64,000 nt of DNA from Escherichia coli. Its GTDB lineage: Bacteria > Pseudomonadota > Gammaproteobacteria > Enterobacterales > Enterobacteriaceae. The notes beneath the pieces were generated by a model. It was not told the origin of the DNA. It worked only from the letters and a program-made list of their open reading frames with translations, and ran no database searches. Position numbers and translations under genes: made by a program. Shown one piece after another: positions 3,106-54,023 of this stretch. Position 1 is the stretch's first letter. Each line of letters opens with the position of its first letter. Location: NCBI RefSeq assembly GCF_003991155.1, contig NZ_CP031293.1; one strand, written 5' to 3'.

Positions 3106-3996
3106 ATGGCAATGGTCCAACCGAAATCGCAAAAAGCACGTTTGTTTATTACTCACCTGCTACTGCTACTTTTTATCGCGGCGATTATGTTCCCGCTGCT
3201 GATGGTCGTCGCCATCTCGCTGCGTCAGGGGAACTTCGCGACTGGCAGCCTGATCCCGGAGCAAATCTCCTGGGATCACTGGAAACTGGCGTTAGGTTTT
3301 AGTGTGGAACAGGCTGATGGTCGCATTACGCCACCGCCATTCCCGGTACTGCTGTGGCTGTGGAACTCGGTAAAGGTCGCCGGGATTTCCGCGATTGGCA
3401 TTGTGGCGCTCTCCACCACCTGCGCCTACGCTTTCGCCCGTATGCGCTTTCCAGGCAAAGCGACGCTGCTGAAAGGAATGCTGATTTTCCAGATGTTCCC
3501 GGCAGTACTTTCACTGGTCGCGTTGTATGCGTTGTTTGATCGTCTGGGTGAGTACATTCCATTCATTGGCCTGAATACTCACGGCGGCGTAATTTTCGCG
3601 TATCTGGGCGGGATTGCGCTGCATGTCTGGACCATCAAAGGTTATTTCGAAACCATCGACAGTTCGCTGGAAGAAGCGGCGGCGCTGGATGGTGCGACAC
3701 CGTGGCAGGCCTTCCGCCTTGTCCTGTTGCCGCTGTCAGTACCGATTCTGGCGGTGGTGTTCATCCTGTCGTTTATCGCTGCCATTACTGAAGTTCCGGT
3801 CGCGTCGCTATTACTGCGTGACGTAAACAGCTACACCCTGGCTGTGGGGATGCAGCAATACCTCAACCCGCAAAACTACCTGTGGGGTGACTTTGCCGCC
3901 GCTGCCGTGATGTCTGCATTACCGATCACCATCGTCTTCTTGCTGGCTCAACGCTGGCTGGTCAACGGCCTGACGGCAGGTGGTGTGAAAGGTTAA
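3106..3996 (+). CDS. malG: Maltose ABC transporter permease MalG
   Basis: 296-aa [24 protein letters not shown]...; operon context. Confidence 0.97.
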
Positions 3997-4063
3997 AGAT
4001 GTTGTTCTGCCAATGTTATGCCGCTGCACCCTCAACTTACGTTATCCCAACTTGTGACTGTTA

Positions 4064-4092
4064 TTCGGCGCTCCACGGAGCGCCTTTTTTTA
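4064..4092 (+). terminator. Rho-independent terminator after malG (GC hairpin GGCGCTCCACGGAGCGCC plus T-run), overlapping the psiE stop
   Basis: Perfect inverted repeat followed by TTTTTTT at 4085-4091; between convergent malG and psiE. Confidence 0.6.
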
Positions 4093-4500
4093 CTCCCGCT
4101 TCAGCCGTTTCGAATTACACAGCCACAGGGTGATCACCAGTAACAGGATCGCTGCCGAGTAGATCAACACATCCAGTGGCGATTTATGATCGACGATGAT
4201 CAAGCGCACAATGGCGGTGATCCCAATATAGACAAAGTAACGTAGCGGGAAGTGAAAACCGGACTGAAAGTACTTCACAATCAGCGCGATAAATTCGAAA
4301 TAGAGAAAGTAAACCACCAGCCCTTCTACCAGCTCATATTTGCTGGTTTGTTCTGGCGCGAACAGCACATCAGCCAGATGCACCGTTTCTTTGCCGAGGA
4401 AGACAACCAAAATAAGGCCGAGGCACAGCAGGCCAAGATTGAGTACGGTCTGCAAAATGGTGGAGATAAACTCCACGCGCGGACGAGAGAGTGACGTCAT
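4090..4500 (-). CDS. psiE: Phosphate-starvation-inducible inner membrane protein PsiE
   Basis: Translation from internal start [25 protein letters not shown]... (136 aa); the longer ORF 4090..4635 has an N-terminal extension judged spurious. Confidence 0.9.
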
Positions 4501-12795: not shown

Positions 12796-13143
12796 TTACG
12801 AATTACTGCGGCGCTGTTGCTTTTCCGCATGTACGCGTTTCACAATCTTATAAATCCATTGCAGCGTCAGATTATATTTCTTCGCTAATTCGGCGTAGTT
12901 GCGCCCATCGCACTCGCTATAGATTTGGTAGTCACGCTCCGATGCTCGTCCGGAGATCCCCTTAGGGAAATAAATGCTTTGTCCGCCCCAGTTACGCATC
13001 ATTCGGTCGGCAATGGCAAAGCCCACATTTTCTGCCGATGAACTGTCGAGATTGATGCTTTCAATCAGAACTTGCGATGCATGAAAAGCCAGGTCGTTAA
13101 TGATCTCCGGTGTCCGGGCCATCTCTTTTGATTTTCGTATCAT
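12796..13143 (-). CDS. Mor/C-family (phage Mu middle/late) transcriptional activator
   Basis: 115-aa ORF; C-terminus GGQSIYFPKG...RDYQIYSECDGRNYAELAKKYNLTLQWIYKIVKR matches the conserved Mor/C HTH region (Mu Mor GGGQVYIPRG...RIWNDFNGRNVSELTTRYGVTFNTVYKAIRR); GGAG RBS 7 nt upstream. Confidence 0.8.
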   Translation of the reverse strand: MIRKSKEMARTPEIINDLAFHASQVLIESINLDSSSAENVGFAIADRMMRNWGGQSIYFPKGISGRASERDYQIYSECDGRNYAELAKKYNLTLQWIYKIVKRVHAEKQQRRSNS

Positions 13144-13364
13144 TTTTCATCTCCATATATCTTGCATCCTGAATAAGACCCGATGCGTGTAAAACCACGG
13201 ATATACGCTAAGCAGTTGTCATTACTGCTACTCAATACATTCAACAAACAAATAAACAATTAACAAAAATATAAATTTTTAATATTAATGAACGCCATAA
13301 ATTCATGAAATAGATATATTGTTTGCGTTATGTTTCTTGTCAACAGGTGTATCATTTTACACGA

Positions 13365-13384
13365 TACTGTATACACATACAGTA
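13365..13384. promoter_or_regulatory. LexA operator (SOS box) TACTGTATACACATACAGTA
   Basis: Matches consensus TACTGTATATATATACAGTA at 18/20 with both CTG/CAG half-sites perfect; flanked by inverted TTTTACAC / GTGTAAAA; overlaps a candidate plus-strand sigma-70 promoter (TTTACA-16-TACAGT). Confidence 0.7.
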
Positions 13385-13680
13385 TTATTTTTACTTGTAG
13401 TGTAAAAAGATCGTTTCCCTCACAGTCGCTGACTTTCTTAAACAAACTTTAAAAATCAAATAACTACTGACTATTCCTACGATTCACCATCATCTTTTCC
13501 CTGCATAATGACGCGCTTATTCGCGAGGTCACCTTTTGCTCTTTAATTGCTGAGTGGATTTATTAGCGGGCATGTTCATTTATAGAGAATCTATTTTTTA
13601 AACTTATTTATTAAAGCTTTTTTCATTCTTCACTGGCGGGTTCTGGCGACACTAAACGCTCACTTATCAGGAGATACCGT

Positions 13681-13968
13681 ATGAAAAAAGTCACTCTTCC
13701 CCGGCTTTCCGGTTGGCTGGTCGCTTCCGTCGCGCTGTTTGTCGTGATCGGCTGGACCTCTTCAGCACAAATCCCGGTCGTCATTTATAAACTAAGCCTG
13801 GTTTCGCTTTCCGCGGTGCTGGGATACTGGCTCGATCGCAGTTTGTTCCCCTGGGCACGGCCTGACTCTTTTTGCCCCTGGAAGGAACCGCGTTGCTGCG
13901 CGGCGGCAATGATTCGCCGGGCTATCATCGTTGCTGCCGTCTGCCTTTCCGTCGCGTTAGGGCTATAG
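13681..13968 (+). CDS. Putative holin-like small membrane protein (three predicted hydrophobic segments)
   Basis: 95-aa ORF with hydrophobic helices, immediately upstream of the endolysin gene; function inferred from position. Confidence 0.45.
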   Translation: MKKVTLPRLSGWLVASVALFVVIGWTSSAQIPVVIYKLSLVSLSAVLGYWLDRSLFPWARPDSFCPWKEPRCCAAAMIRRAIIVAAVCLSVALGL

Positions 13969-13970
13969 TG

Positions 13971-14576
13971 ATGTGGCTGAAATATATCGCGTCTATGATT
14001 ATTTTCGTTCTTTTCCCACTCAACGCCTCTGAACCGCCGAGAGCCTCTCTGGCATGGCGAAACGAACTAATTCGTACAGCTCGAGAAGTCTGGGGGCTGA
14101 ATGCCCCAGTGGCCGACTTTGCCGGGCAATTACACCAGGAGTCCGCCTGGCAGCCAATGGTACGTTCCCCCGTTGGCGCACAAGGTATGGCGCAATTTAT
14201 GCCTGCTACAGCGACATGGATAAGCCAGTTGTATCCACAATTGCGTGAAAACAAACCGTATAACCCAACCTGGGCGATTCGCGCGCTGGTGCAATATGAC
14301 CAGCATTTGTGGAAAAACATCTCTGCGAAAAATGATTGTCAGCGTATGGCGTTTACCCTAAGCGCCTATAACGGCGGTCAGGGGTGGGTTAACCGGGATA
14401 AAAAACTGGCTGCATCCAAAGGGTTAGATGCCACTAGCTGGTTTGGTCATGTTGAGCAAGTCAACGCCGGGCGCAGCGCCACGAACTGGCGAGAAAATCG
14501 TCGCTATCCAAAGATGATCCTCTATCAACATGCCGCCCGCTATTTACTCTGGGGACAGGCAAGCTGTCTTCATTAA
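13971..14576 (+). CDS. Endolysin, lytic transglycosylase (SLT domain) with hydrophobic N-terminus (signal or SAR-like)
   Basis: Motifs HQESAW and GAQGMAQFMPATA typical of the SLT catalytic region; start taken at the internal ATG at 13971 just after the upstream ORF stop. Confidence 0.8.
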   Translation: MWLKYIASMIIFVLFPLNASEPPRASLAWRNELIRTAREVWGLNAPVADFAGQLHQESAWQPMVRSPVGAQGMAQFMPATATWISQLYPQLRENKPYNPTWAIRALVQYDQHLWKNISAKNDCQRMAFTLSAYNGGQGWVNRDKKLAASKGLDATSWFGHVEQVNAGRSATNWRENRRYPKMILYQHAARYLLWGQASCLH

Positions 14577-14588
14577 TCAGAGGGGCCG

Positions 14589-14903
14589 ATGAAACTCAGT
14601 ATCGATTTTTGGGAAGTGATCTCCCTTATGCTTTCCTTCGTTGGATTAATGTTTGCTGCCGGAAAACTGCTGTTAGCACAAATTGAAAAACGACTTAATG
14701 AGCGTTTTGAATCTCTGGAAAACGCGCGCCGGGAATCAGAAACAAGTTGGTCGAAACTGGAAAGAGAATTTCTCGAATTTCGTGCCGAGCTTCCGCTGCA
14801 TTATGTCCGCAGAGAAGATTATCTTCGTGGGCAAGCAGTATTAGAAGCGAAGCTGGATGCCTTATATAGCAAAATCGAGCTGTTACAACGTGGCAGTTAT
14901 TGA
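14589..14903 (+). CDS. Putative spanin-like lysis accessory protein (N-terminal TM helix plus coiled coil)
   Basis: 104-aa ORF, N-terminal hydrophobic segment followed by charged coiled-coil-like sequence; position after endolysin. Confidence 0.4.
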   Translation: MKLSIDFWEVISLMLSFVGLMFAAGKLLLAQIEKRLNERFESLENARRESETSWSKLEREFLEFRAELPLHYVRREDYLRGQAVLEAKLDALYSKIELLQRGSY

Positions 14904-14904
14904 A

Positions 14905-14941
14905 AAATCCCCACCCTTATGTAAGGGTGGGGATTTTTTTA
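14905..14941 (+). terminator. Strong rho-independent terminator (ATCCCCACCCTTatgtAAGGGTGGGGAT plus T7) between lysis cassette and tail genes
   Basis: 12-bp perfect stem followed by TTTTTTT; A-run on the other side makes it bidirectional. Confidence 0.7.
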
Positions 14942-15047
14942 ACCATTCAATTTTTTCTCTAAATCACATTAAAAGATTCTTCACCTTCGCTGCTTCAGAA
15001 TACATTTCAACGATAACGAAGTGAGCGGTAATTAAGGTACAGCCTAT

Positions 15048-15503
15048 ATGGAAATTTTATCTGTAATGAATTCTGTTGTGACCAGATTACGTGAACACAA
15101 CTCCGAAATGGATATATTTATTTCATCTAAGGATGCCCAGAAATATATTCCACAGACACAACGAGTTGCAGTGATTATTAATTATAGCGGTTCTGTCTTT
15201 GCTACGCCCGAAAGCAGTAATGCCATCGTGCAACAGCAAATACTCCGCTTAACCGCCACCGTTATTGTTGGCAAAAATTGTGATGCATTAAACGCACTTG
15301 ATCACATACGCAGCGCATTGGGTGGCCTTCAGCTTCCTGATTGCGATCGTCTTCTTTGGCTTGAAAAAGAAATTAATACGGGTGAGAGCGGCGGTTTCTG
15401 CCGCTACATCCTGGAAATGGCGACCAGCTCGCTATTTATCGCTGAACAGGAAAGCACGGATCTTCCCCTGCTTACGGAAGTTAACTACGAGGAAACTGAA
15501 TGA
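15048..15503 (+). CDS. Hypothetical tail-associated protein (first gene of tail operon; possibly tail completion/terminator)
   Basis: 151-aa ORF translationally coupled (ATGA) to the next ORF; role inferred only from position upstream of sheath. Confidence 0.5.
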   Translation: MEILSVMNSVVTRLREHNSEMDIFISSKDAQKYIPQTQRVAVIINYSGSVFATPESSNAIVQQQILRLTATVIVGKNCDALNALDHIRSALGGLQLPDCDRLLWLEKEINTGESGGFCRYILEMATSSLFIAEQESTDLPLLTEVNYEETE

Positions 15504-15697
15504 AATACATCTACAACGGCCCAGCAAGCGGCGTCACCCTTGCCGATGGACAAGAAATCTTATTGTGGCCGAACAGTGAAATTGATCTGCCAGAAGACAA
15601 CGAGTGGGTCATGACCATGATTGCCCGCAATCATCTGACTCCTGTCATCACTCAGGAAGAACAAAATAACGTAGAGGAAATTGTACATGGCAGCTAA
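15500..15697 (+). CDS. Small hypothetical protein (65 aa) preceding tail sheath
   Basis: ORF overlapping neighbours at both ends; typical of small conserved proteins upstream of Mu-like sheath genes. Confidence 0.4.
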   Translation: MKYIYNGPASGVTLADGQEILLWPNSEIDLPEDNEWVMTMIARNHLTPVITQEEQNNVEEIVHGS

Positions 15698-17111
15698 TTA
15701 TCTGCACGGTGTAGAAACTATTGAAATTGAAACCGGCCCGCGTCCGGTTAAAGCGGTAAAATCCGCCGTCATCGCTTTAATCGGTACAGCCCCCTGCGGT
15801 CCGGTAAATAAACCAACATTATGCCTTTCTGAAAGCGATGCTGCGCAGTTTGGCTCGACTCAGGCTAACTTTACGATCCCACAGGCACTGAAGGCAATTT
15901 ATGACCACGGTGCCGGTACGGTGGTGGTGATTAACGTGCTGGATCCGGCAAAACATGGCTCCAACATCAGCAATGAGAGTATCACTTTTGATGCTAACAA
16001 CCAGGCGAAGCTCGCTCACCGCAATGTGCGTAACGTGGTACTAAAGCCCTCTTCATCAAATTCATCAACCTTTAACACCGCAGCATTTAGCGTAGATGAA
16101 CAAACAGGCATAATTACCCGTAAAGGAGCCGACATTCCTCCTGGTGCGAAAGTTTGTGCCTATTATTCCTGGTGCGACCCTACAAAGGTCACCGCAGCCG
16201 ATATTATCGGTACCGTAAATACCGCAGGCGACCGCACGGGGATGAAACTGCTACAGGACACCTATAACCTGTATGGTTTCTACGCCAAAATCCTGCTTGC
16301 TCCCGTGTTCTGTACGCAAAAATCAGTAACTACAGAGCTGATTGCACAAGCGGAAAAACTTGGTGCGATTACCTACATTGATGCCCCGATTGGGACGACA
16401 TTCCAGCAGGTATTGGCAGGACGCGGTTCGCAAGGGGCTATCAACTTCAACACCAGCTCTGATCGTGCGCGTTTATGTTACCCACACGTCAAAGTTTACG
16501 ATGGCATCACTAACCAGGAAGTTCTCGAACCGCTCTCTTCGCGCGCTGCCGGGCTACGTGCCAAAGTAGACCTCGAAAAAGGTTTCTGGTGGAGCAACTC
16601 AAACCAAGAAATTCAGGGTATTACCGGTATTGAACGTTCGCTTTCCGCAATGATTGATGATCCACAAAGCGAAGTGAATCAGCTAAACGAAAACGGCATT
16701 ACCACTATTTTCAATAGTTACGGCTCTGGTCTGCGCTTGTGGGGCAACCGCACTGCAGCGTGGCCTACCGTGACCCATATGCGTAACTTTGAAAACGTCC
16801 GCCGGACAGGCGATGTAATTAATGAGTCAATCCGTTATTTCAGTCAGCAGTATATTGATATGCCGATTAATCAGGCGCTGATTGATGCCCTGACCGAATC
16901 GGTAAATACCTGGGGCCGTAAGCTGATTGCCGACGGCGCACTGCTTGGCTTTGAATGCTGGTACGATCCGGCGCGAAATTCACCGACTGAACTCAGCGCT
17001 GGGCATTTATTGCTGAGCTATAAATTCACCCCACCGCCGCCGCTGGAACGTCTGACGTTTGAAACTGAAATTACTTCTGAATATTTAGTCTCTCTGGAGA
17101 GCAATAGCTAA
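15687..17111 (+). CDS. Contractile phage tail sheath protein
   Basis: About 474-aa ORF starting MAANYLHGVETIEIETGPRPV...; size and N-terminal motif typical of Mu gpL / P2 FI-type sheath proteins; RBS GAGGAAA upstream of the ATG at 15687. Confidence 0.85.
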   Translation: MAANYLHGVETIEIETGPRPVKAVKSAVIALIGTAPCGPVNKPTLCLSESDAAQFGSTQANFTIPQALKAIYDHGAGTVVVINVLDPAKHGSNISNESITFDANNQAKLAHRNVRNVVLKPSSSNSSTFNTAAFSVDEQTGIITRKGADIPPGAKVCAYYSWCDPTKVTAADIIGTVNTAGDRTGMKLLQDTYNLYGFYAKILLAPVFCTQKSVTTELIAQAEKLGAITYIDAPIGTTFQQVLAGRGSQGAINFNTSSDRARLCYPHVKVYDGITNQEVLEPLSSRAAGLRAKVDLEKGFWWSNSNQEIQGITGIERSLSAMIDDPQSEVNQLNENGITTIFNSYGSGLRLWGNRTAAWPTVTHMRNFENVRRTGDVINESIRYFSQQYIDMPINQALIDALTESVNTWGRKLIADGALLGFECWYDPARNSPTELSAGHLLLSYKFTPPPPLERLTFETEITSEYLVSLESNS

Positions 17112-17635
17112 TGGCTGGAAAAATTCAAATTAACCGTATTACCAACGCCAATATTTATCTCGATGGTAATAACCTTTTAGGTCGTGCAACCGAAATTAAA
17201 TTGCCGGATGTCAGTTTAATTATGCAGGAGCATAAAGCACTGGGCATGGTGGGTAAAATCGAACTCCCGGCGGGTTTCGATAAACTGGAGGGCGAAATTA
17301 AATGGAACTCCTTCTATCAGGACGTAATGCGTAAAACGGCAAACCCGTGGCAGGCGGTTGCATTACAGTGCCGCTCCAGTATTGATTGCTATAACTCCCA
17401 GGGGAAAGCGAATCAATTAGCGCTAGTGACACATTTAACCGTGATGTTTAAAAAGAATCCACTGGGCACATTTAAACAGAATGAAAACCCGGAATTCAGC
17501 AGCGCCTTTGGTTGCACTTATATTAAACAAGTAGTTGATGGTGAAACGCTGCTTGAACTTGATTATATGGCCAATATTTTCCGGGTTAATGGTGTGGATC
17601 AATTAAGTACCTATCGCAATAACATCGGTGGCTAA
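17111..17635 (+). CDS. Phage tail tube protein
   Basis: 174-aa ORF directly following sheath (TAATG overlap); sheath-tube order conserved in contractile tails. Confidence 0.8.
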   Translation: MAGKIQINRITNANIYLDGNNLLGRATEIKLPDVSLIMQEHKALGMVGKIELPAGFDKLEGEIKWNSFYQDVMRKTANPWQAVALQCRSSIDCYNSQGKANQLALVTHLTVMFKKNPLGTFKQNENPEFSSAFGCTYIKQVVDGETLLELDYMANIFRVNGVDQLSTYRNNIGG

Positions 17636-17685
17636 GTTATTCGGGGCTACGGCCCCGAACTTTGCAAAATAAATAAGGACACAAA

Positions 17686-18003
17686 ATGAAAGAACATTAT
17701 ATCTTACAGTTCCCGTTTACTTCAGCGGCGGGAGACGTAATTAACACTCTGCAATTACGTCGCCTGAAAGTAAAAGATATGCGCAACGCGCGCCGGATCA
17801 GCGAAAAACCTGAAGAGTGGGATGAACCGCTAATGGCGGCAATGACCGGACTGGTGCCAGAAGATTTAGCTGAAATGGATTTGCTGGATTACCAGGCATT
17901 GCAGAAACGATTTCAATCCATGCTTAGCGTGGCTACAGAATCCGCCACTGTTATGGCAAGCGATGGCGTTACTGGCGAGATGGTTTCGCTTTCCACCCAG
18001 TGA
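17686..18003 (+). CDS. Putative tail assembly chaperone (gpE-like position)
   Basis: 105-aa acidic ORF between tube and tape measure genes. Confidence 0.5.
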   Translation: MKEHYILQFPFTSAAGDVINTLQLRRLKVKDMRNARRISEKPEEWDEPLMAAMTGLVPEDLAEMDLLDYQALQKRFQSMLSVATESATVMASDGVTGEMVSLSTQ

Positions 18004-18192
18004 GATAGACGCCCTTACCGTCGATGACTTTAGCAACTGGCTGGATGAAGCCAGCGCCCAAATAAAAATCGAATATGACTCGCAGACCTGATGTCTGCGA
18101 GTTTCCCAAGCCCGTCAGGTTTATTTCTTCCCTGCCCCTTTTTTTAGAAAAATAACCAGCGGGCCATTATCAATATTTAAAGAGAAACAATT

Positions 18193-20568
18193 TTGGCCAA
18201 CGATATTATTACCCAGCTTCAGGCGCGTAATGAGACGTTGACGCAGGCAATAGCCCGTTACGGCTCACTCAACGCCAGAACATTGTTAACTCTCTCTACT
18301 CAGCAGGCGACAGTTATCAAACTAACGCAGCAGCTTGCCGATTCCGCTCTCCGCCTGGAGGAAAATAGCCGCAGCCGCGCTAATCTGATGGAGAAAACCC
18401 AAACATTTGCCGGGCAATTTAGCAAAGTATTCAATGTTGAAGCCCCCGACTGGAAGTTGCCGTATGAGTTTCAGGACAACATGGTCAATATGGCGACCAA
18501 AGGTGGGATGAATGCTACAACCCGCGAGACGCTCAGCCTTAATCTGCGCGACTGGAGCATGGATTTTAACCAGCAGCAGACCACCTTACAGAACGCAGCC
18601 CAAACGCTGATCGAAGGCAATTTGTCGTCGATACAGGATCTCAACCGTTATATGCCGGAGATCGCCAAAGCTGCCACCGCCACGCGCGAAAGTGCTGAAA
18701 CATGGGCGAATGCCGCGCTCGCAACCCATGATCGACTGAATATTGCCCCGGAAAATTTCCACGCCGCGCAAAACATGATGTACGGCATTAGCAAAAGCGG
18801 TGGGCCTGCCATTGCTGAACAAACGCAGTGGATAGAGAAATTTGCAGGTAAAACCGGCGCTCAGGGTCTGGAAGGTATGGCTGAACTGACCGCCACCATG
18901 CAGATCGCCATGAAAAACGGGGCCAGCGCCAGTGCGGCGGCGGAGAATTTCGACCACTTTCTGCAAACCACCTTTTCGAAAAAAACCGATTACTGGTTCG
19001 TCAGCCAGGGCGTTGATCTGCAAGGCTCTCTGCTTGAGCATCAGCAAAACGGTATGGGTGTTAGCGAAGCCATGACTCATATCGTGCAAATGCAGCTTGA
19101 GAAGATGAATCCGGCGATCCTCGACACCTTCAAACGCACCATGCAGATCGAAGATTTATCTGCCCGCAGCAATGCGCTGCAATCGATGGTGACGCAGTTT
19201 AATCTGGGGGAAATGTTCGGCGATGCGCAAACAGTGGAATTCCTGGCCCCTATGCTGGCGAATATGGAGGAATATCGCCAGTTAAAAGCCTCTGCCATGC
19301 AAGCCACCAGCAAGAATCTGATTGATGCCGACTTTTCTGCGCAAATGGCCTCGCCCATTGAACAGACTAAAGCGTTACAGCTGGCGTTAAATGATTTATG
19401 GCTCAGCATTGGCTTGCAATTAATGCCGCTGATTGGCGAGCTGGCACAAAGCCTTACGCCGGTTATTCGTCAGTTCAGCGCCTGGCTACGTGAGCACCCG
19501 ACACTGGTGCAAAACATCGCGAAAATCGTCGGGGCGATTTGGCTGTTTAACGGTGCGCTGAATGTTTTAAAGCTGGGCGCGAACCTCATCACCTCGCCGT
19601 TTATTCGTCTGGTCGATATCTTCCTGAAAGTCAAGGCAAGTCTGGCGCTCACAGGCGGGGCAAGTAAGATGCTATCAGCGGTTAAGTCATTGGGTGGCGG
19701 CGCAAAATGGCTAACGCAACTGCTTGGTCGTGGCCTGATTGGAACATTGAAACTGGTTGGTCGGACCGTTCTCTCACTAGGCCGGGTGCTACTGATGAAT
19801 CCCATTGGTCTGGTCATCACTGCGATTGCGGGCGCTGCTTATCTGATTTATCGCAACTGGGAGCCTATCTCCAGGTTCTTTTCGACCATCTGGCAACGTA
19901 TCACCACGGCCTTTGACGGCGGCATTGCAGGAATTTGTCGGTTGATTCTCGACTGGTCACCGCTGGAGTTGTTCTATAGCGCCTTTTCCAGTGTGATGAA
20001 TTGGTTTGGTGTCGAGATGCCTGCAAGTTTTAGCGAGTTCGGCAGCAATCTTCTGGGCAGTCTGGTTGACGGCATAATGAATGCCTTCCCCGCTCTGAAA
20101 GGCATTATTGATCAGGTAAAAAACGCCATCCCAGACTGGCTAAAAACCACGATGGGTATTAGTACAGAAGGATCGGCTACAGCTATTACAAGCACGACTA
20201 ATACCGCATCCGTCTCCCCCGCGACCGTTGTTCCAGGCGTTGCCGGTGCGATTTTAACGCCGCCGGTGGGCAAACAACTCGCGCCATCCGGCAAAACGGC
20301 TACGCCGTCATCGGCGCCAGCGGCAAAAAATACAGCCGCCAAACCCGTATCTGCCTCTTTACCTGGTAAATCCGTAACCAAAGCGGCGACGCTACCTTCC
20401 CGTTCCTCAGGAAAAGTTCAGGTGAATTTTTCGCCACAAATTACCGTGCAGGGTAACGGACAAAACACCACTAAAGAGATTCAGAACGTGTTGACGATGA
20501 GTAAACGCGAACTGGAAAGAATGATTAACGATGTAATGGCGCAGCAGCAGCGCCGGGGGTATGCCTAA
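18193..20568 (+). CDS. Tail tape measure protein
   Basis: 791-aa ORF, alpha-helical and Ala/Gln-rich with central hydrophobic segments; position after chaperone; start codon uncertain (TTG at 18193 in track). Confidence 0.8.
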   Translation: MANDIITQLQARNETLTQAIARYGSLNARTLLTLSTQQATVIKLTQQLADSALRLEENSRSRANLMEKTQTFAGQFSKVFNVEAPDWKLPYEFQDNMVNMATKGGMNATTRETLSLNLRDWSMDFNQQQTTLQNAAQTLIEGNLSSIQDLNRYMPEIAKAATATRESAETWANAALATHDRLNIAPENFHAAQNMMYGISKSGGPAIAEQTQWIEKFAGKTGAQGLEGMAELTATMQIAMKNGASASAAAENFDHFLQTTFSKKTDYWFVSQGVDLQGSLLEHQQNGMGVSEAMTHIVQMQLEKMNPAILDTFKRTMQIEDLSARSNALQSMVTQFNLGEMFGDAQTVEFLAPMLANMEEYRQLKASAMQATSKNLIDADFSAQMASPIEQTKALQLALNDLWLSIGLQLMPLIGELAQSLTPVIRQFSAWLREHPTLVQNIAKIVGAIWLFNGALNVLKLGANLITSPFIRLVDIFLKVKASLALTGGASKMLSAVKSLGGGAKWLTQLLGRGLIGTLKLVGRTVLSLGRVLLMNPIGLVITAIAGAAYLIYRNWEPISRFFSTIWQRITTAFDGGIAGICRLILDWSPLELFYSAFSSVMNWFGVEMPASFSEFGSNLLGSLVDGIMNAFPALKGIIDQVKNAIPDWLKTTMGISTEGSATAITSTTNTASVSPATVVPGVAGAILTPPVGKQLAPSGKTATPSSAPAAKNTAAKPVSASLPGKSVTKAATLPSRSSGKVQVNFSPQITVQGNGQNTTKEIQNVLTMSKRELERMINDVMAQQQRRGYA

Positions 20569-21521
20569 TGTATGCCGTTTTAGGAGAGATTGAATTTAAG
20601 GTTGTCACATTCTGGGACGGCTTTAAAAGCACAATGGGCGTGGATTACGCCACACATGCCCGTATAGAAGGCAAACCCGGCGTGCAGTTTATTGGCGATA
20701 AGCTGGATATGCTGGCGCTGGAATTTTCCCTGCACAGCCAGTTTTGCCAGCCCACAACAGAGCTGAACCGACTGCGTGAAGCCATGCTTGCTCACAAGGC
20801 GATGGCACTGGTATTTGGCAATGGCGATTATCGCGGCTGGTTTGTGATTACGGAGCTAACCGCCACCCACCAGCACACCGATCCCTGGGGCAATGTGATT
20901 GCCCAAAACGGAACGATGTCGCTCCAGGAGTACACCGGCGATCCTAAAAATCCACTTTTACCTCCGGCGATTACCACCCAGGAGCCCAACATCGAGGAAA
21001 AGGCGAGCGATTTTCCCGACAAGGTGGAGTCCTGGTTTGATCAGATATTAAACGCCATTGAAGAAGGTATGCGTAAGGCCAAAGAGATGCTGGATGAACT
21101 GACACAATCCATTGAAGATATTAAAAAAACGGTGGCAAAAGTGAAAGCAATGATTAAAGAGGCCAAAGCGTTAAAAGAAAAGTGTGAAAAGATAATTACG
21201 TCATTGAAAAAGACAATCGACGCCATCGAAACCCTGTTTAAACAGCCAATGGATCTGCAAACGCTGGCAGGCCTACCAAAAGCGTTGTCGGCGCAGATTA
21301 AAGCTTTACTGGGTAACATGCCAGGTATCCGGGACTGCGCCAATGACGCCAGTACGCTGGTTGACCATGCTCAGGCGCTTTTCGACGACATTACCAGCGA
21401 CATCGCCGAAGCGACGTTCGATAAAGCCACGTCGTTGGTTGAGCAGGCACGTACAACGGTACAACAAACCACTCCCGCAGTGAGCCAGCTTGCTGCCGTA
21501 ACCATTACCAGGAGCTGGTAA
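20568..21521 (+). CDS. Tail protein, P2 gpU-like N-terminal domain with coiled-coil C-terminal extension
   Basis: N-terminal region (ARIEGKPGVQFIG...WFVITELTATHQHT) resembles the P2 gpU / Mu N N-terminal family; overlaps TMP stop. Confidence 0.7.
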   Translation: MYAVLGEIEFKVVTFWDGFKSTMGVDYATHARIEGKPGVQFIGDKLDMLALEFSLHSQFCQPTTELNRLREAMLAHKAMALVFGNGDYRGWFVITELTATHQHTDPWGNVIAQNGTMSLQEYTGDPKNPLLPPAITTQEPNIEEKASDFPDKVESWFDQILNAIEEGMRKAKEMLDELTQSIEDIKKTVAKVKAMIKEAKALKEKCEKIITSLKKTIDAIETLFKQPMDLQTLAGLPKALSAQIKALLGNMPGIRDCANDASTLVDHAQALFDDITSDIAEATFDKATSLVEQARTTVQQTTPAVSQLAAVTITRSW

Positions 21522-21730
21522 TGCGATACCTTGAACATATCACCACCGATGGCGAACGCTGGGATAACCTGGCATGGCATTACTACGGTGATGCGCTGGC
21601 TTATGAACGCATAATCGCCGCCAATCCACATGTAGCCATTTACCCGGTACTGCCTTCCGGTATTCAGCTCATTATTCCGGTCATTTCCGTTAATAAAACC
21701 TTATCGGAGATCCCACCATGGCTGAGATGA
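21521..21730 (+). CDS. Tail protein X-like (small LysM-like tail protein)
   Basis: 69-aa ORF with AANP...LP.G pattern as in P2 gpX; located between U-like and D-like genes as in R-type pyocin clusters. Confidence 0.7.
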   Translation: MRYLEHITTDGERWDNLAWHYYGDALAYERIIAANPHVAIYPVLPSGIQLIIPVISVNKTLSEIPPWLR

Positions 21731-22758
21731 GCGTAACTGGTGGCGTCTTTGCCACACTCACGCCCATTTTTACCCTCTGGTATGGGCATAAAGATATCAC
21801 TTATGACATCACACCCTATGTCACCAGCATCAGTTACCACGACAGCATCAAAAACGAGTCGGATACCATCGCAATTACACTGGATGACACAGATGGACGC
21901 TGGATAAAAGAGTGGTATCCCGGCAAAGGCGATACGCTGGCGCTGCATATAGGTTATCAGGGGGAAAAGCTGCTCGATTGTGGCCAGTATATTATTGATA
22001 AAATTGATATTTCAGCGCCACCTTCCACGGTAAATATTGATGGCATCGCCACTTCCGTCAATCAGGCGCTGCGCACCCGTAACAGCCAGGGCTTTGAAGA
22101 AACGACGCTTTCGGCGATCGCCAGCCGTATTGCCCAAACGCACGGTCTGAAACTGGTGGGCAAAATCGAGTCGCTCACCATCGACCGGGTAACGCAGTAT
22201 GGTGAAACCGATGTCGGATTTCTCAAACGTCTGGCCAGTGAATATGGTTATGCCGTAAAAGTGACGACAAAAGAGCTGATTTTTTCACATTTACCCACGC
22301 TGCGCTGCCTGACGCCTGTGAAAAAGATCGATCGCAAAGAGGTTTCTCATTTTACCTTCAAAGACACCATTAACCGGATCTACAAGAACGCCACCGTACA
22401 GCATCAAAATAGTAAGAAAAAAGAACTGGTTATCTACACTCACAACAGCCAGCAAAAACCATCTGTCCGTGGAGTCGGCACTAGTGCCGACACGCTAAAA
22501 CTGAACAGTCGGGCGACGGACGTTGGCGCAGCACAGGCAAAGGCTAACGCTGCACTCGACAGCCACAACGAATATCAGCAAACCGGAACGCTCACAATGA
22601 TGGGCTGCCCGGAACTGACGGCGGGCAATAAAATTGAACTGACCGATTTTGGCGTGATTTCCGGTCAGTGGCTGATTGATAAATCTACTCACAGTTTTGT
22701 GCGCAGCGGCTATACCACTGAAATCGACGTGTCACGCGGGCCAGCGACCAGCCAGTAA
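21718..22758 (+). CDS. Phage late control D-like / Mu gpP-like tail (baseplate hub) protein
   Basis: 346-aa ORF in the conserved U-X-D position. Confidence 0.75.
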   Translation: MAEMSVTGGVFATLTPIFTLWYGHKDITYDITPYVTSISYHDSIKNESDTIAITLDDTDGRWIKEWYPGKGDTLALHIGYQGEKLLDCGQYIIDKIDISAPPSTVNIDGIATSVNQALRTRNSQGFEETTLSAIASRIAQTHGLKLVGKIESLTIDRVTQYGETDVGFLKRLASEYGYAVKVTTKELIFSHLPTLRCLTPVKKIDRKEVSHFTFKDTINRIYKNATVQHQNSKKKELVIYTHNSQQKPSVRGVGTSADTLKLNSRATDVGAAQAKANAALDSHNEYQQTGTLTMMGCPELTAGNKIELTDFGVISGQWLIDKSTHSFVRSGYTTEIDVSRGPATSQ

Positions 22759-22767
22759 GGAGGAAAT

Positions 22768-23469
22768 ATGAAAGGAGTAACCCGTCAAACGGGGATTATC
22801 AGCGATATTGACGAAACCAGTGTTCGGGTACGGGTCACTCTACCAGAGTGTGACAATCTGAAGAGCAACTGGCTTGCGGTACTTCAACGCAATTCCCAGG
22901 ACAATAAAGACTACTGGCTACCGGATATGGGCGAGCAAGTGGAAGTTCTGCTGGACGATAACGGTGAAGATGGCGTGGTGCTGGGTGCCGTTTATTCTAC
23001 GGTTGACACCGCGCCTGTAGCCTCGCGCGACAAACGTTACGTCCAGTTTTCTGATGGCGCAGCGTTTGAATATGACCGCAGCACGCACCAGCTGACGATT
23101 AACGGCGGTATCGAGAAAATCGTGATTGAGGTTATCGACAGCACCCGCCTGACATCGCCCAACGTTGAGATTAAAGCCCAACACGTCACCGTGACTTCCG
23201 ATACCGTCGATGTTAAAGCGACCGATGTCAGCATCGACGCCACTAAGGTCGAGGTTAAAGCAGCAGCAGTGACGGTAGATGCGCCCATGAGCACCTTTAC
23301 TGGCAACGTCACGGTAATGAAAAAACTCACCTGGCTTGGCGGGATGGCAGGAAGTGGAGGCATCGGTAACGCAGCCACGATAACCGGCAATGTCAACGTG
23401 ATCGGCAACGTTCAGGCCAGCGGCGCATTGCAGGACAGCGGTGGCAACTCCAACCACCATTCACACTGA
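22768..23469 (+). CDS. Baseplate assembly protein V-like (central spike)
   Basis: 233-aa ORF; N-terminal OB-fold-like region and C-terminal repetitive beta region (VTVTSDTVDVKATDVSIDATKVEVKAAAVTVDA) typical of gpV spikes. Confidence 0.8.
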   Translation: MKGVTRQTGIISDIDETSVRVRVTLPECDNLKSNWLAVLQRNSQDNKDYWLPDMGEQVEVLLDDNGEDGVVLGAVYSTVDTAPVASRDKRYVQFSDGAAFEYDRSTHQLTINGGIEKIVIEVIDSTRLTSPNVEIKAQHVTVTSDTVDVKATDVSIDATKVEVKAAAVTVDAPMSTFTGNVTVMKKLTWLGGMAGSGGIGNAATITGNVNVIGNVQASGALQDSGGNSNHHSH

Positions 23470-23472
23470 CTT

Positions 23473-23505
23473 TTAACCCGCCTGATGGCGGGTTTTCTCT
23501 TTTTA
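23473..23505 (+). terminator. Hairpin (AACCCGCCtgatGGCGGGTT) plus T-rich tract after the spike gene; possible partial intra-operon terminator
   Basis: Perfect 8-bp stem followed by TTCTCTTTTT. Confidence 0.5.
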
Positions 23506-23567
23506 ATCAATCAGTTTTCTAAATCGCTTTAATATCTCCACAGCCCGTTCAGGGCGAAAATACCCTC

Positions 23568-23927
23568 ATGAACACAAAAACACGCCCCTCAACGCTGCAC
23601 TGGCAACCGGCCTTGCAGCGGCCTGAAGAATACGTCTGCGGGCTGGATGATATTCACCAGGCAATACACATCATTCTGCGTACACCGCGCGGCAGTGATC
23701 CCCACAGACCGCTGTTTGGCAGCAACTTGTGGCACTACATCGATTACCCCATCGAGCGGGCTATCCCGCATGTGGTACGGGAGTCGGTGGAAGCCATCCG
23801 CCAGTGGGAACCGCGCTGTCGGTTGCTGAAGGTGACACCAGTAATCGACGGCGAACATCTGACGTTACGTGTGCAATGGCGCGCCGCTGACGGCGTTATC
23901 AACTCAACGGAGGTGTTATGGCGATAG
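23568..23927 (+). CDS. Baseplate wedge protein gpW / gp25-like
   Basis: 119-aa ORF; PRGSDPHRPLFGSNLWHYIDYP resembles the GPW_gp25 family core. Confidence 0.75.
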   Translation: MNTKTRPSTLHWQPALQRPEEYVCGLDDIHQAIHIILRTPRGSDPHRPLFGSNLWHYIDYPIERAIPHVVRESVEAIRQWEPRCRLLKVTPVIDGEHLTLRVQWRAADGVINSTEVLWR

Positions 23928-25033
23928 CCGAACCCAATTTTATTGACCGCGATCCTGCGCAAATTACCAGTGAGATGATTGCGCAATACGAAGATGCCAG
24001 TGGTAAAAAACTCTATCCGGCACAGGCTGAGCGGTTGCTCATCGACCTGTTTGCCTATCGTGAAAACCTTGTACGCATCGCCATTCAGGAAGCGGCGAAA
24101 CAAAACCTGGTCGCGTATTCCCGCGCGCCAATGCTGGATTATTTAGGGGAGTTGGTGGGAGTTCACCGTTTGCCTGCGCAGCCTGCAAAAACGACGTTGC
24201 AGTTTTCGGTCGTTAGTGCGTATCCCGGCAATATCCTGATTCCCCAGGGGACGCGGGCCAGTGCCTCTGATAGCGTGATGTTCGCCACCGATGAAGATGT
24301 TCTGCTTCCGGCCAGGAGTTTGCATATCGCCGTTCCTGCCACCAGCCTCGCAGCAGGTGAACAGGGTAACGGCTGGCAGCCTGCACAAATTAGCGCACTG
24401 GTCGACAGGATTGGTCATTATGACATCAACGTAACCAACCTGACTGCGTCAACGGGCGGCTGCGGTGAAGAGAGCGATGACGCATTGCGCCAGCGTATCC
24501 AACTGGCACCAGAAAGCTTTAGTAATGCGGGCAGCTATGGTGCCTACCGCTTTCATACGCTTTCTGTTAGCCAGTCGATTATTGACGTTGCAGTACTGGG
24601 GCCGGACGAGGGATTGCCAGAAGGCTGCGTGGAGATCTACCCGCTAACCCTGAATGGTCTACCCGGCACGGAGTTGCTGGCGCAGATTGAACAAGAAGTC
24701 AGCAAGGAGAAAAAACGACCGCTGACCGACAAAGTGAGTGCGAAATGCGCTCTTCGAGTGCCGTATGAGATCCGTGCGCAGCTAATGCTGTTTACCACCG
24801 CCGATCAGGAGACAACGCTGGCTGCGGCGCGTAAAGCGATTAGCCTCTGGACGCAACAGCGGCAGAAACATCTGGGGCAGGACATTGTGCCAAACCAGAT
24901 AATCAAAGTGTTACAGGTCGATGGCGTCTATGACGTTGCGCTGAATATGCCTACAAAACGTATTTTGCAGGCGCATGAATGGGCGGAATGCACTGCAATA
25001 GACGTCACGATTGCCGGAGTCAGCGATGGATAA
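23918..25033 (+). CDS. Baseplate protein J-like
   Basis: 371-aa ORF after gpW with GGAGG RBS; W-J-I order. Confidence 0.8.
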   Translation: MAIAEPNFIDRDPAQITSEMIAQYEDASGKKLYPAQAERLLIDLFAYRENLVRIAIQEAAKQNLVAYSRAPMLDYLGELVGVHRLPAQPAKTTLQFSVVSAYPGNILIPQGTRASASDSVMFATDEDVLLPARSLHIAVPATSLAAGEQGNGWQPAQISALVDRIGHYDINVTNLTASTGGCGEESDDALRQRIQLAPESFSNAGSYGAYRFHTLSVSQSIIDVAVLGPDEGLPEGCVEIYPLTLNGLPGTELLAQIEQEVSKEKKRPLTDKVSAKCALRVPYEIRAQLMLFTTADQETTLAAARKAISLWTQQRQKHLGQDIVPNQIIKVLQVDGVYDVALNMPTKRILQAHEWAECTAIDVTIAGVSDG

Positions 25034-25742
25034 ATTGCTGCCACCGCCGCCGCTTGCCAGCGATGAGCGTTTTTCGATTCTGGCAAACATCGCCGCCGAG
25101 CGTTTTGCCCAACTCGATCTGACGGCGTTGATGGTTTATCTGGTCGACCTGGTTGATGCTTCGGCATTACCAGCCCTTGCAGAACAATTTCACGTTCAGG
25201 GGCTGGAAGGTTGGTTATTTACCACCGATGAGCGGGAGAAACGCGAGTTAATTAAACAAGCCATTGAACTGCATAAATATAAAGGAACAATTTGGGCGGT
25301 ACGGCGAGTGCTGGAAATACTTTCCTTACCCGGAACTATTTCAGAATGGTTTGAATATGGGGGAAGGGCTTATTTTTTTAAGGTAAATATTACACTAGAG
25401 GAAAAAGGATTAAATGAAGATGAATTCAATGCACTTATCACATTAATTCATGAATATAAAAATGTTCGTTCAAAGCTGGAAAGCATTGTTATTTGGCTTA
25501 TTAATCGAAGCCCAATACCAGTTATTGGCAGCGCCATGCAAGGAGGGGAAGTCATTACAGTATTGCCTCCTGTTGCAGAAAGCCTCAGCCAGTCATCAGG
25601 AATATTTTTAGCGACGGGTTATTGTGTGGAGGAATATATCCAACTACTACCTTATCAACCCGATCGCCTTACACAATCCCAACCGATGAAGGTCGGCACA
25701 GGATACTGGAGCACCGAAATTATGTCTGTATATCCGGAGTAA
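25026..25742 (+). CDS. Tail protein I-like (baseplate)
   Basis: About 238-aa ORF from ATG 25026 overlapping J stop; position before tail fiber. Confidence 0.7.
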
Positions 25743-25744
25743 TA

Positions 25745-27325
25745 ATGGCAAGTGAATTTTTTACAATATTAACTGCTGCAGGCAAAGCCAAAATTGCCTC
25801 AGCACTGGCCGAGCAAAAACAGATCCGTCTGCAAACTATGGTAGTTGGCGACGGTAATGGTAAATATATCGAACCGACAGAAAGTCAGACCAAAGTAGTC
25901 CATGAGGTCTGGCGTGGTCAGCTCAATACATTAAAAATTGCGCCAGATAATCCGGCCTGGGTTATCGCAGAAGCGATTATTCCCGAACAAGTCGGAGGCT
26001 GGTATGTACGCGAAGTTGGGTTACTGGATACCGACGGCACGCTGGTCGCTATTGGTAAATTCCCGGAAACCTATAAGCCACGATTACCTGCGGGGGCCAG
26101 TAAGCAAATCGTTATACGCGCGGTCATGGAAGTCACCAATGCAGACGCGGTGACGCTTTTGATCGACCCTTCAGTCGTTGTGGCAACCAGGGAATATGTC
26201 GATGACGCGTTGAAAACACATCAGCAATCACGAAATCATCCTGATGCGACGCTGACACAAAAAGGTTTTACGCAGCTCAGTAATGCAACTAATAGCGATG
26301 ATGAGACTAAAGCAGCCACGCCAAAAGCGGTAAAAACGGCATATGACCTGGCAAATAGCAAAGCCGCAACCAGTCATACTCATGCCTGGAATCAGATTAC
26401 TGGTATCCCTGACGGTACACTGACGCAGAAAGGAGTCGTTAAACTTAACAACACAACAAATAGCACCAGTACAACGGAAGCTGCAACGCCAAGTGCGGTT
26501 AAAGCAGCGATGGACAAGGCTATTGCTGCGGCGCCGTCCAGCCATACCCATGCCTGGGGGCAAATAACAGGTATCCCCGACGGTACGCTGACACAAAAAG
26601 GGGTCGTGAAACTTAATAATGCGACCAACAGCACCAGTACGACGGAAGCTGCGACGCCGAACGCGGTTAAGGCAGCGATGGATAAGGCTATTGCTGCGGA
26701 AAGCTGTCCTGTTGGGATGCCTATTCCCTGGCCATCTGATTCTGTACCTTCAGGCTACGCTCTGATGACAGGTCAGACATTTAATAAAACCTCCTATCCC
26801 AAACTGGCAATTGCATATCCATCTGGTGTTATTCCTGATATGCGCGGATGGATAATTAAAGGAAAACCATCCAGTGGGCGCGCTATATTATCTACTGAAC
26901 TGGATGGAGTTAAATCACATAACCATACGGGCAGTATTTCGAGTACTGATTTAGGGACGAAAACCACACCCCTCACAGACTTGGGGACTAAAACTGCATC
27001 ATCATTTAACCATGGAAATAAAACAACAAGTTCATCTGGCTCAGGCTCGGCAACTGCAACAGTAAGAACAGGGACATCTTCACCAGAGGGCCAAGGCGAC
27101 TGGACATCATATGGCCCTGGTACCGGATCATCTTTGGCAATTAATGTTCCATCACACGTTCATAGTGTTACAATTGGTTCCCATTCGCACACTGTTGCGC
27201 TCGGCACCCATTCGCATTCAATTGCACTTGGTTCCCATAACCACTCCCTAACCATTAATAATACCGGCAGCACCGAAAACACCGTCAAAAATATCGCATT
27301 CAACTATATTGTGAGGCTAGCATGA
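25745..27325 (+). CDS. Tail fiber protein (P2 gpH-like N-terminal anchor, repeat region, His-x-His tip)
   Basis: N-terminus [23 protein letters not shown]...HEVWRGQLN...[12 protein letters not shown] resembles the conserved P2 H N-terminal domain; three tandem ~45-aa repeats; C-terminal [22 protein letters not shown]. Confidence 0.85.
26244..26700 (+). repeat. Intragenic tandem repeats (three ~135-bp units) within the tail fiber gene
   Basis: Repeated [12 protein letters not shown](A/T)[12 protein letters not shown](S/N)[12 protein letters not shown]...HTHAW(N/G)QITGIPDG seen at DNA and protein level. Confidence 0.7.
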
Positions 27326-28481: not shown

Positions 28482-28495
28482 AATAACGCCGGGCA

Positions 28496-33389: not shown

Positions 33390-33458
33390 AAATCTTCCCG
33401 ATGTTTACCGTAATAAAAATTACGGCGGGTCCCTATTATCTAAAATCAGGAGTCTGTT

Positions 33459-34265: not shown

Positions 34266-34274
34266 GGAGGCTTT

Positions 34275-35176: not shown

Positions 35177-35241
35177 ATAATAGCGCCTGTGTACATATGC
35201 TTTAACAGGCAGGGATGACGACACTTAAAAGGTGACAAATC

Positions 35242-36039: not shown

Positions 36040-36049
36040 CGGAGCCATC

Positions 36050-36874: not shown

Positions 36875-36925
36875 TTCTTCGCCCCGGCGCAACCGTCGGG
36901 GCCATCGTTCAACATGAGGTGGTTT

Positions 36926-47243: not shown

Positions 47244-47259
47244 CTTTTTCGCCTCTGAT

Positions 47260-48984
<1,725 letters not shown>

Positions 48985-54012: not shown

Positions 54013-54023
54013 TGCTAAATTTG

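What the first reader, a model, noticed from the sequence alone, without database searches (positions are those of the whole stretch)
3997..4089. xylE appears absent: malG and psiE are separated by only 93 bp
As I recall the K-12 map, the D-xylose/proton symporter gene xylE lies between malG and psiE. Here the two genes are convergent and share a single hairpin terminator with no room for another gene, indicating a strain lacking xylE or a clean deletion.
Basis: partly seen in the sequence, partly recalled or inferred. Interest (0 to 1): 0.3.

Follow-up and report, generated by a model that had tools for sequence, protein, structure and literature searches.

The report
Ancestral xylE-free malG–psiE junction
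This E. coli strain has no xylE xylose-transporter gene between malG and psiE, but this is the common, original gene arrangement (K-12's xylE is a later insertion), and the 93-bp gap holds the known small RNA MalH, so the finding is correct but ordinary.

Summary
malG (3106-3996, +) and psiE (4090-4500, -) converge across exactly 93 bp, with one hairpin (4067-4084) followed by a T7 run.

The "clean deletion" reading is not supported. The same scar-free junction occurs in 1,786 of 5,426 complete E. coli genomes, including reference strains of phylogroups B2, D and F. It also occurs in four non-coli Escherichia species and in most other Enterobacteriaceae genera, as far as Klebsiella. xylE is present in A, B1 and E strains. 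Absence is therefore ancestral, and xylE is a cassette inserted right after the malG terminator T-run.

Real xylE losses leave scars, as in C. braakii and E. coli PCN061. The matching strain (2016C-3878, 99.99% identical to the window) has no xylE anywhere on its chromosome. xylFGH is near-universal in E. coli.

The 93-bp spacer is not empty. It is the known 3'UTR-derived sRNA MalH (window 3989-4091, identical to K-12 malH b4807), and its terminator T-run overlaps the psiE stop codon.

All of this is already published: xylE absence in strain 042 (2010), xylE gain in the A/B1 lineage (2019) and MalH (2020). Interest is low.

The parts
3106..3996 (+). malG, last gene of malEFG (maltose ABC transporter permease)
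   Evidence: ORF and translation. Annotated malG, WP_001252058.1, in the matching record.
3989..4091 (+). [quoted passage not shown]
   Evidence: MG1655 annotation malH b4807 at 4242531-4242633 overlaps the malG 3' end by 8 nt. Window 3980-4091 is identical to K-12 over 112 nt. Described as a 104-nt sRNA in PMC8081044.
3997..4089 (.).
   Evidence: Sequence. It aligns end to end with the spacers of other Escherichia species and other genera.
4051..4060 (+). CTTGTGACTG box, the most conserved block in the 9-sequence alignment (first base differs in K. pneumoniae, TTGTGACTG invariant); lies inside MalH
   Evidence: Alignment A1 conservation line and invariant columns. Its role as seed or structure was not tested here.
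4067..4091 (+). Intrinsic terminator of malEFG/MalH: 7-bp stem, 4-nt loop, T7 tract
   Evidence: Terminator scan and RNA fold. The stem is kept through compensatory changes in K. pneumoniae (AGCGGCC/GGCCGCT).
4085..4092 (.). Unoccupied xylE insertion point: the T-run that abuts and overlaps the psiE stop codon. K-12 has 1,797 bp inserted here.
   Evidence: BLAST breakpoints at query positions 588-592, i.e. window 4087-4091. K-12 boundary sequences: T7|CTTTCG... on the left and ...GTGCTGAC TTTTT|ACTCCC on the right.
4090..4500 (-). psiE (phosphate-starvation-inducible inner-membrane protein); its stop codon overlaps the last 2 nt of MalH
   Evidence: ORF and translation. Annotated psiE, WP_000202902.1.

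Best explanation
The window shows the ancestral enterobacterial arrangement. The malEFG operon ends in the MalH sRNA and its intrinsic terminator, and the terminator T-run directly abuts the stop codon of the convergent psiE gene. xylE was never at this site in this lineage. In the E. coli clade containing phylogroups A, B1 and E (K-12 included), a self-contained 1.8-kb cassette was inserted exactly after the T-run. The cassette carries the xylE promoter region, xylE, and its own hairpin with a T-run. The strain here looks like phylogroup F: it lacks arpA and yjaA, and its closest reference strains for the phage-cluster segment searched are IAI39 and CE10. It belongs to the roughly one third of E. 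coli (B2, D, F) that keep the empty site. Such strains import xylose through XylFGH only. Shown here: the junction anatomy, the distribution across strains and species, and the absence of xylE from the chromosome. Inferred: the direction of change, by parsimony and lack of scars; the phenotype, from the literature on strain 042; and the insertion mechanism, which is unknown (no mobile-element signature, only duplicated T-runs).
For: 1. Counts: 1,786 of 5,426 complete genomes carry the contiguous junction at 98.5-100% identity. The xylE segment is in 3,639. The sum is 5,425, the number of genomes matching the locus at all, so the two states are complementary.
2. Reference strains: 042 (D) and SMS-3-5 (F) have psiE-93 bp-malG, and ST131 (B2) has the contiguous junction. 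IAI39 and CE10 (F) show no xylE place. K-12, REL606, O157:H7 and IAI1 (B1) have xylE.
3. Outgroups: 61 of 70 species-level loci where both gene ends could be placed lack xylE. These include E. albertii, E. whittamii, Escherichia sp. E1V33 and MOD1-EC7003, and most have spacers of about 81-220 bp. The alignment shows the same conserved box, hairpin, T-run and psiE stop from E. coli to Klebsiella, with compensatory stem changes.
4. No scar: the spacer is 100% alignable to outgroup spacers. Genuine xylE losses leave remnants. C. braakii has a 382-bp spacer made of promoter fragment, xylE 3' end and terminator, and E. coli PCN061 keeps only 275 bp of the segment.
5. K. oxytoca keeps a 15-nt remnant of the native psiE 3' end next to the malG terminator, to the left of its xylE cassette. 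This is an insertion signature.
6. Other cargo sits at the same point in other genera: a PTS/LacI cassette and a LysR+HAD pair.
7. Literature: xylE is listed as acquired by the A/B1 sublineage (PMC6896753). Strain 042 lacks xylE, respires xylose less well and keeps xylFGH (PMC2808357).
8. xylFGH is present in 5,419 of 5,426 genomes.
Against: xylE sits at the same site in the C. freundii complex and in K. oxytoca, and its divergence from E. coli xylE equals that of flanking malG (about 83-84% nt, about 58% third-position identity). That pattern would also fit ancient vertical presence followed by many losses. Because the cassette is flanked by T-runs (T7 and T5), a deletion between them would regenerate exactly the ancestral-looking junction, so the absence of a scar is not absolute proof. 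No donor for the E. coli cassette was identified. E. fergusonii, E. marmotae, E. ruysiae and Salmonella were not among the 80 loci returned. Phylogroups of the reference strains are taken from prior knowledge, and no core-genome tree was built here.
Confidence: 0.88

Rival explanations
1. Precise deletion: an xylE-positive ancestor of this lineage lost the 1,797-bp cassette by slippage or illegitimate recombination between the two flanking T-runs (T7 after the malG hairpin, T5 after the xylE hairpin). This would restore a junction indistinguishable from the ancestral one.
For: The cassette in K-12 is bounded by T-runs on both sides, so such an event would leave no scar. xylE divergence between genera equals core divergence, which is compatible with an old presence.
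Against: It would have to occur independently and precisely in D, F, B2 and every non-coli Escherichia sampled. The observed real losses are imprecise (C. braakii, PCN061). A 5-7-nt homopolymer is very weak homology for a 1.8-kb deletion. K. oxytoca shows a positive insertion signature.
Confidence: 0.05
2. Allelic replacement: the lineage once had xylE and later received the xylE-free allele by homologous recombination of the malG-psiE region from another E. coli lineage.
For: Recombination of core regions is common in E. coli (established knowledge). The flanks are 98.8-99.4% identical between xylE-positive and xylE-free strains, so crossing over would be easy.
Against: All sampled F-type relatives (SMS-3-5, IAI39, CE10 and over 30 near-identical strains) lack xylE. 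MalF in this strain is identical to that of SMS-3-5, WP_001361466.1, so the locus looks native to its lineage.
Confidence: 0.04
3. Artefact: xylE is missing because of an assembly collapse or a window-extraction error.
For: None found.
Against: The junction is present in 1,786 independent complete genomes. The window is 99.99-100% identical to a finished chromosome across all 64 kb.
Confidence: 0.01

Closest known systems
E. coli K-12 malG-malH-xylE-psiE locus (b4032, b4807, b4031, b4030)
   Same: malG, MalH (112 nt identical, including the terminator) and psiE are the same genes in the same convergent orientation.
   Different: K-12 has 1,797 bp more (xylE promoter region, xylE, xylE terminator) inserted after the MalH T-run. 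Here the MalH T-run itself overlaps the psiE stop codon.
E. coli 042 (phylogroup D) and SMS-3-5 (phylogroup F) malG-psiE locus
   Same: Identical architecture: psiE, 93 bp, malG, with no xylE. The absence of xylE from 042 and its weaker xylose metabolism are published (PMC2808357).
   Different: Only strain-level SNPs. 042 carries arpA, and this strain does not.
MalH sRNA (Iosub et al. 2020, RNA Biol, PMC8081044)
   Same: Same sequence, same position at the 3' end of malG, same Rho-independent terminator.
   Different: MalH was characterised in K-12, where xylE lies downstream. Here the convergent psiE gene ends inside the MalH terminator T-run. Expression and processing in this context are untested.
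xylE cassette at the same site in the Citrobacter freundii complex and Klebsiella oxytoca
   Same: Same insertion point (after the malG terminator T-run), same orientation, and its own hairpin terminator abutting the psiE stop.
   Different: Absent from this window. The left boundaries differ between genera: K. oxytoca has about 280 extra bp plus a psiE-end remnant, E. coli about 65 extra bp, and Citrobacter none.

Membership tests
Ancestral xylE-free malG-psiE allele (E. coli phylogroups B2/D/F, other Escherichia, most Enterobacteriaceae) | malG and psiE are convergent and adjacent, with a spacer of about 80-120 bp | tested here: met
   93 bp. Other Escherichia species have 93-94 bp.
Ancestral xylE-free malG-psiE allele (E. 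coli phylogroups B2/D/F, other Escherichia, most Enterobacteriaceae) | The malG terminator T-run directly abuts or overlaps the psiE stop codon, with no foreign sequence between them | tested here: met
   T7 at 4085-4091 and psiE stop at 4090-4092. The same holds in the alignment of 9 taxa, apart from a 21-nt insert in Kluyvera cryocrescens.
Ancestral xylE-free malG-psiE allele (E. coli phylogroups B2/D/F, other Escherichia, most Enterobacteriaceae) | No xylE anywhere else in the genome | tested here: met
   places_in_record = 1 for NZ_CP029747.1 with the chimeric query. The counts 1,786 + 3,639 = 5,425 are complementary. This test was DNA-level (megablast) only; tblastn was not available for this collection.
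Secondary deletion of xylE | Remnants of the cassette (promoter region, xylE 3' end or xylE terminator) at the junction | tested here: not met
   The spacer aligns fully to outgroup spacers and contains no cassette sequence. Compare the scars in C. braakii and PCN061.
Secondary deletion of xylE | The xylE-free strain is nested within an xylE-positive clade | tested here: not met
   Reference strains of D, F and B2 and four other Escherichia species all lack xylE. Only A, B1 and E strains have it. No formal tree was built.
MalH sRNA | Sequence homologous to K-12 malH (b4807) at the 3' end of malG, including the stop codon | tested here: met
   112/112 nt identical. Coordinates taken from the MG1655 annotation.
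MalH sRNA | Rho-independent terminator at the 3' end | tested here: met
   Hairpin 4067-4084 plus T7.
MalH sRNA | RNase E-dependent processing from malEFG, Hfq binding, and regulation of ompC/ompA/MicA | not testable with these tools
   Reported for K-12 in PMC8081044. Needs Northern blots, CLASH or similar in this strain.
Bidirectional intrinsic terminator shared by convergent genes | A hairpin flanked by an A-tract upstream and a T-tract downstream, so that each strand's transcript ends in a U-tract | tested here: not met
   The scan finds the site on the + strand only. On the - strand the hairpin is followed by GAAUAACAGU.
Rfam-curated RNA family | A match reaching the gathering score | tested here: not met
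   The only hit is TarB at 18 bits against a gathering score of 80, E = 0.65, driven by the terminator hairpin. No MalH family matched.

The most novel reading that the evidence does not exclude
In xylE-free strains psiE has no canonical terminator of its own, and its stop codon lies inside the MalH terminator T-run. psiE transcripts, reported to be induced by phosphate starvation and cAMP-CRP, must therefore stop at or read through the MalH hairpin, antisense to MalH and malG. This could couple phosphate and carbon starvation signalling to MalH biogenesis or maltoporin tuning. The xylE insertion in the A/B1/E lineage, where MalH was characterised, would have removed that coupling by adding a 1.8-kb insulator.
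Probability: 0.07. Interest if true: 0.4.

Novelty: already known. Interest (0 to 1): 0.08.

Why it matters
It matters little on its own. It is a textbook example of K-12 not being the reference state: a gene that looks "missing" relative to K-12 is actually a lineage-specific gain in K-12's clade. In practice, about one third of E. coli, including most extraintestinal pathogenic lineages (B2, D, F), rely on XylFGH alone for xylose uptake. This is relevant to metabolic models, phenotype arrays and strain engineering. It also shows that the MalH sRNA, studied only in K-12, has psiE rather than xylE as its immediate downstream neighbour in these strains, which could affect 3'-end formation.

Tried and rejected
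- Rfam scan of 3800-4300 gave only a chance TarB hit through the terminator hairpin.
- I looked for mobile-element signatures around the K-12 cassette (terminal inverted repeats, direct repeats, GC anomaly). Nothing turned up beyond the xylE terminator hairpin, an AT-rich promoter region and the T-runs.
- I tried to identify a donor with a protein search. The database is clustered at 90% identity, so E. coli, Citrobacter and K. oxytoca XylE are not resolved from one another, and the more distant homologues (Entomohabitans 88%, Shimwellia 82%, Salmonella Choleraesuis 81%) are patchy. No donor was found.
- I tested whether xylE is younger than its flanks by comparing divergence. It is not: it equals malG. 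This is uninformative because the enteric genera are roughly equidistant.
- I looked for a psiE-end remnant at the left edge of the E. coli cassette, like the one in K. oxytoca. Local alignments were insignificant.
- Comparing arpA counts with xylE counts showed that the xylE-free set (about 1,787 genomes) is larger than the arpA-free set (1,325). That pointed to phylogroup D, which strain 042 confirmed.
- The UMN026 accession was not in the collection.
- A literature search for xylE + malG + psiE together found nothing.
- A regex for the terminator in the longer spacers failed, so those were inspected by eye.

Full report
**Observation.** The sequence shows malG at 3106-3996 (+) and psiE at 4090-4500 (-). 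Both are full length, giving a 296-aa MalG and a 136-aa PsiE. The spacer is 3997-4089, exactly 93 bp, and the genes converge. It contains one strong hairpin, GGCGCTC-CACG-GAGCGCC at 4067-4084, followed by seven Ts at 4085-4091. The last two Ts are also the first two bases of the psiE stop codon on the other strand.

**Identity of the window.** The window is E. coli. It matches the chromosome of strain 2016C-3878 (NZ_CP029747.1) at 99.99-100% identity over all 64 kb.

**K-12 comparison.** K-12-type genomes have malG, xylE and psiE in that order, so the recalled map is right. BLAST breakpoints place the difference at window 4087-4091, inside the T-run.
- In K-12 the malG hairpin and T7 are followed by 1,797 extra bp (L001 4593-6389).
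- These comprise an AT-rich promoter region, xylE, and a second hairpin (CAGCACGCCG...CGGCGTGCTG) with a T5 run that then abuts the psiE stop.
- The cassette has no terminal inverted repeats and no IS-like features, and the GC content of the coding part is ordinary.

**Frequency within E. coli.** Of 5,426 complete E. coli genomes, 1,786 have the contiguous malG-psiE junction at 98.5-100% identity, and 3,639 have the xylE segment. The sum equals the 5,425 genomes that match the locus at all, so the two states are complementary.
- A chimeric query (2 kb unique to this strain's phage-tail cluster plus K-12 xylE) listed NZ_CP029747.1 first with a single matching place. The chromosome therefore has no xylE copy elsewhere.
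- xylFGH, the ABC xylose transporter, is found in 5,419 of 5,426 genomes.

**Which lineages lack xylE.** Phylogroup assignments below rest on established knowledge of these reference strains.
- Lacking xylE: 042 (phylogroup D, arpA-positive) and SMS-3-5 (F), both with psiE-93 bp-malG. An O25b:H4-ST131 strain (B2) has the contiguous junction. IAI39 and CE10 (F) showed no xylE place.
- Carrying xylE: K-12 and REL606 (A), IAI1 (B1) and O157:H7 (E).
- The arpA-free set (1,325 genomes) is smaller than the xylE-free set (about 1,787). That fits with D being xylE-free although arpA-positive.
- The window itself lacks arpA (iclR and aceK are 16 bp apart) and yjaA (against K-12). Its phage-cluster segment is closest to IAI39 and CE10, so the strain looks like phylogroup F.

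**Direction of the change.** A scan of species-representative genomes with PsiE returned 80 loci.
- In 70 of them both gene ends could be placed, and 61 of those lack xylE. Most have spacers of about 81-220 bp.
- The xylE-free loci include E. albertii, E. whittamii, Escherichia sp. E1V33 and Escherichia sp. MOD1-EC7003.
- An alignment of nine taxa shows the same architecture throughout: the conserved boxes ATGCC.CTG, CCTCA and (C)TTGTGACTG, then the hairpin, the T-run and the psiE stop. In K. pneumoniae the hairpin is kept through compensatory changes.
- xylE sits between the genes only in E. coli, nine loci of the C. freundii complex, and K. oxytoca. Its sister species K. michiganensis and K. 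grimontii do not have it.
- Real losses look different. C. braakii keeps a 382-bp scar made of promoter fragment, xylE 3' end and xylE terminator. E. coli PCN061 retains only the first 275 bp of the segment.
- K. oxytoca carries, to the left of its cassette, a 15-nt remnant of the native Klebsiella-type psiE 3' end (TTATTCGCGTTTCAGG) directly after the malG terminator. This is a footprint of insertion.
- In other genera different cargo occupies the same point, always leaving the MalH-like hairpin and T-run next to malG. One locus has a PTS EIIBC / isomerase / asparaginase / LacI cassette, and another has a LysR + HAD pair.
- Together these results make the xylE-free junction ancestral and xylE a gain in the A/B1/(C)/E clade. 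This agrees with a published gain/loss analysis that lists xylE as acquired by the A/B1 sublineage (PMC6896753). My data extend the presence to phylogroup E.

**A caveat.** xylE of E. coli differs from that of Citrobacter and K. oxytoca by as much as the flanking malG does: 83-84% nt identity and about 58% third-position identity. The cassette is therefore old in the family and was not recently passed among these three genera.
- This would also fit ancient presence with many losses. A deletion between the flanking T-runs would leave no scar.
- I consider that unlikely. It needs many independent precise events, whereas the observed losses are imprecise.
- The enteric genera are also roughly equidistant, so an unsampled donor genus would give the same numbers.
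- No donor was found.

**What the spacer is.** It is not empty. MG1655 annotates the ncRNA malH (b4807) at 4242531-4242633, overlapping the last 8 nt of malG. That maps to window 3989-4091, and the 112 nt from 3980 to 4091 are identical to K-12.
- MalH is a published 104-nt, Hfq-associated sRNA processed from the malEFG transcript. [quoted passage not shown]
- It represses ompC and ompA, lowers MicA and thereby tunes LamB (PMC8081044).
- This explains the unusual conservation of the spacer across genera. It may also explain why insertions land only after the T-run.
- Rfam gave no MalH match, only a chance TarB hit.

**Termination.** The hairpin is a canonical intrinsic terminator only for the + strand (malG/MalH). 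On the psiE strand it is preceded by an A-run and followed by GAAUAACAGU, and the scan reports no terminator on that strand. "Shared terminator" is thus only half right. How psiE transcripts end here is not known.

**Function and phenotype (inferred).** Strains with this allele import xylose through XylFGH only. For strain 042, lower xylose respiration than MG1655 was attributed to the lack of xylE, with xylFGH present in both strains (PMC2808357).

**Verdict.** It is a common ancestral state already described in the literature, not a deletion. The only mildly open point is whether the direct psiE/MalH 3'-end overlap in xylE-free strains has regulatory consequences.

Noticed in passing
window 12796-30420: A roughly 17.6-kb phage-tail-only cluster lies between lysC and yjbD. 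It carries a Mor activator, holin, lytic transglycosylase, sheath, tube, a tape-measure pseudogene with an internal stop, baseplate genes, tail fibre and DUF4376, plus slipin and nucleotidyltransferase genes. No head or integrase genes are annotated. K-12 has nothing at this site, and IAI1 has only slipin, nucleotidyltransferase and a zeta toxin. It could be a Mu/P2-like remnant or a tailocin-like cluster.
   Followed up: no
window 46419-48984 and 53458-54150: arpA is absent (iclR and aceK are 16 bp apart), and yjaA is absent between yjaB and the rrnE 5S gene. Both are Clermont phylotyping markers. With the closest reference strains for the phage-cluster segment searched being IAI39 and CE10, this points to a phylogroup F-like strain.
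   Followed up: partly
window 32442-38960: An L-sorbose PTS operon (regulator, SDR oxidoreductase, EIIA-D, sorE, shikimate-dehydrogenase-like gene) lies between rluF and pepE. It is absent from K-12 and IAI1 but present in strain 042, making it another variable sugar cassette in this region.
   Followed up: no
L040:5412-10143; L044:5412-7188; L034, L036: The point just after the malG/MalH terminator T-run, at the psiE stop, carries different cargo in other Enterobacteriaceae: a PTS EIIBC + GlcN6P-isomerase-like + asparaginase_2 + LacI cassette, a LysR + HAD pair, and 0.5-0.7-kb inserts. It looks like a recurrent insertion hotspot.
   Followed up: partly
L068 (K. oxytoca) spacer, about 310-330 nt after the malG stop: A 15-nt remnant of the native psiE 3' end (TTATTCGCGTTTCAGG) sits between the malG terminator and the xylE cassette. 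The intact psiE downstream ends with a slightly different sequence (TTACTCGCGTTTCAGTCGG). This suggests the cassette arrived together with part of a foreign psiE.
   Followed up: partly
L020 (C. braakii ATCC 51113) 382-bp malG-psiE spacer: xylE has an internal deletion that leaves about 130 bp of the promoter region joined to the last ~100 bp of xylE plus its terminator. This is a genuine, scarred loss of xylE.
   Followed up: yes
L068, L080, L082, L051, L062 malG 3'UTRs: Klebsiella, Kosakonia and related species carry ERIC-like repeat sequence (…GTGACTGGGGTGAGCG…) between the malG stop and the conserved MalH-like boxes. This lengthens the 3'UTR to about 190-340 nt.
   Followed up: no
E. coli genome hits H31, H66, H70: Some xylE-positive E. 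coli have xylE disrupted by IS1 (strains 675SK2 and 2017.04... relatives), or largely deleted (PCN061 keeps 275 bp). xylE is therefore also being lost secondarily in the clade that gained it.
   Followed up: no
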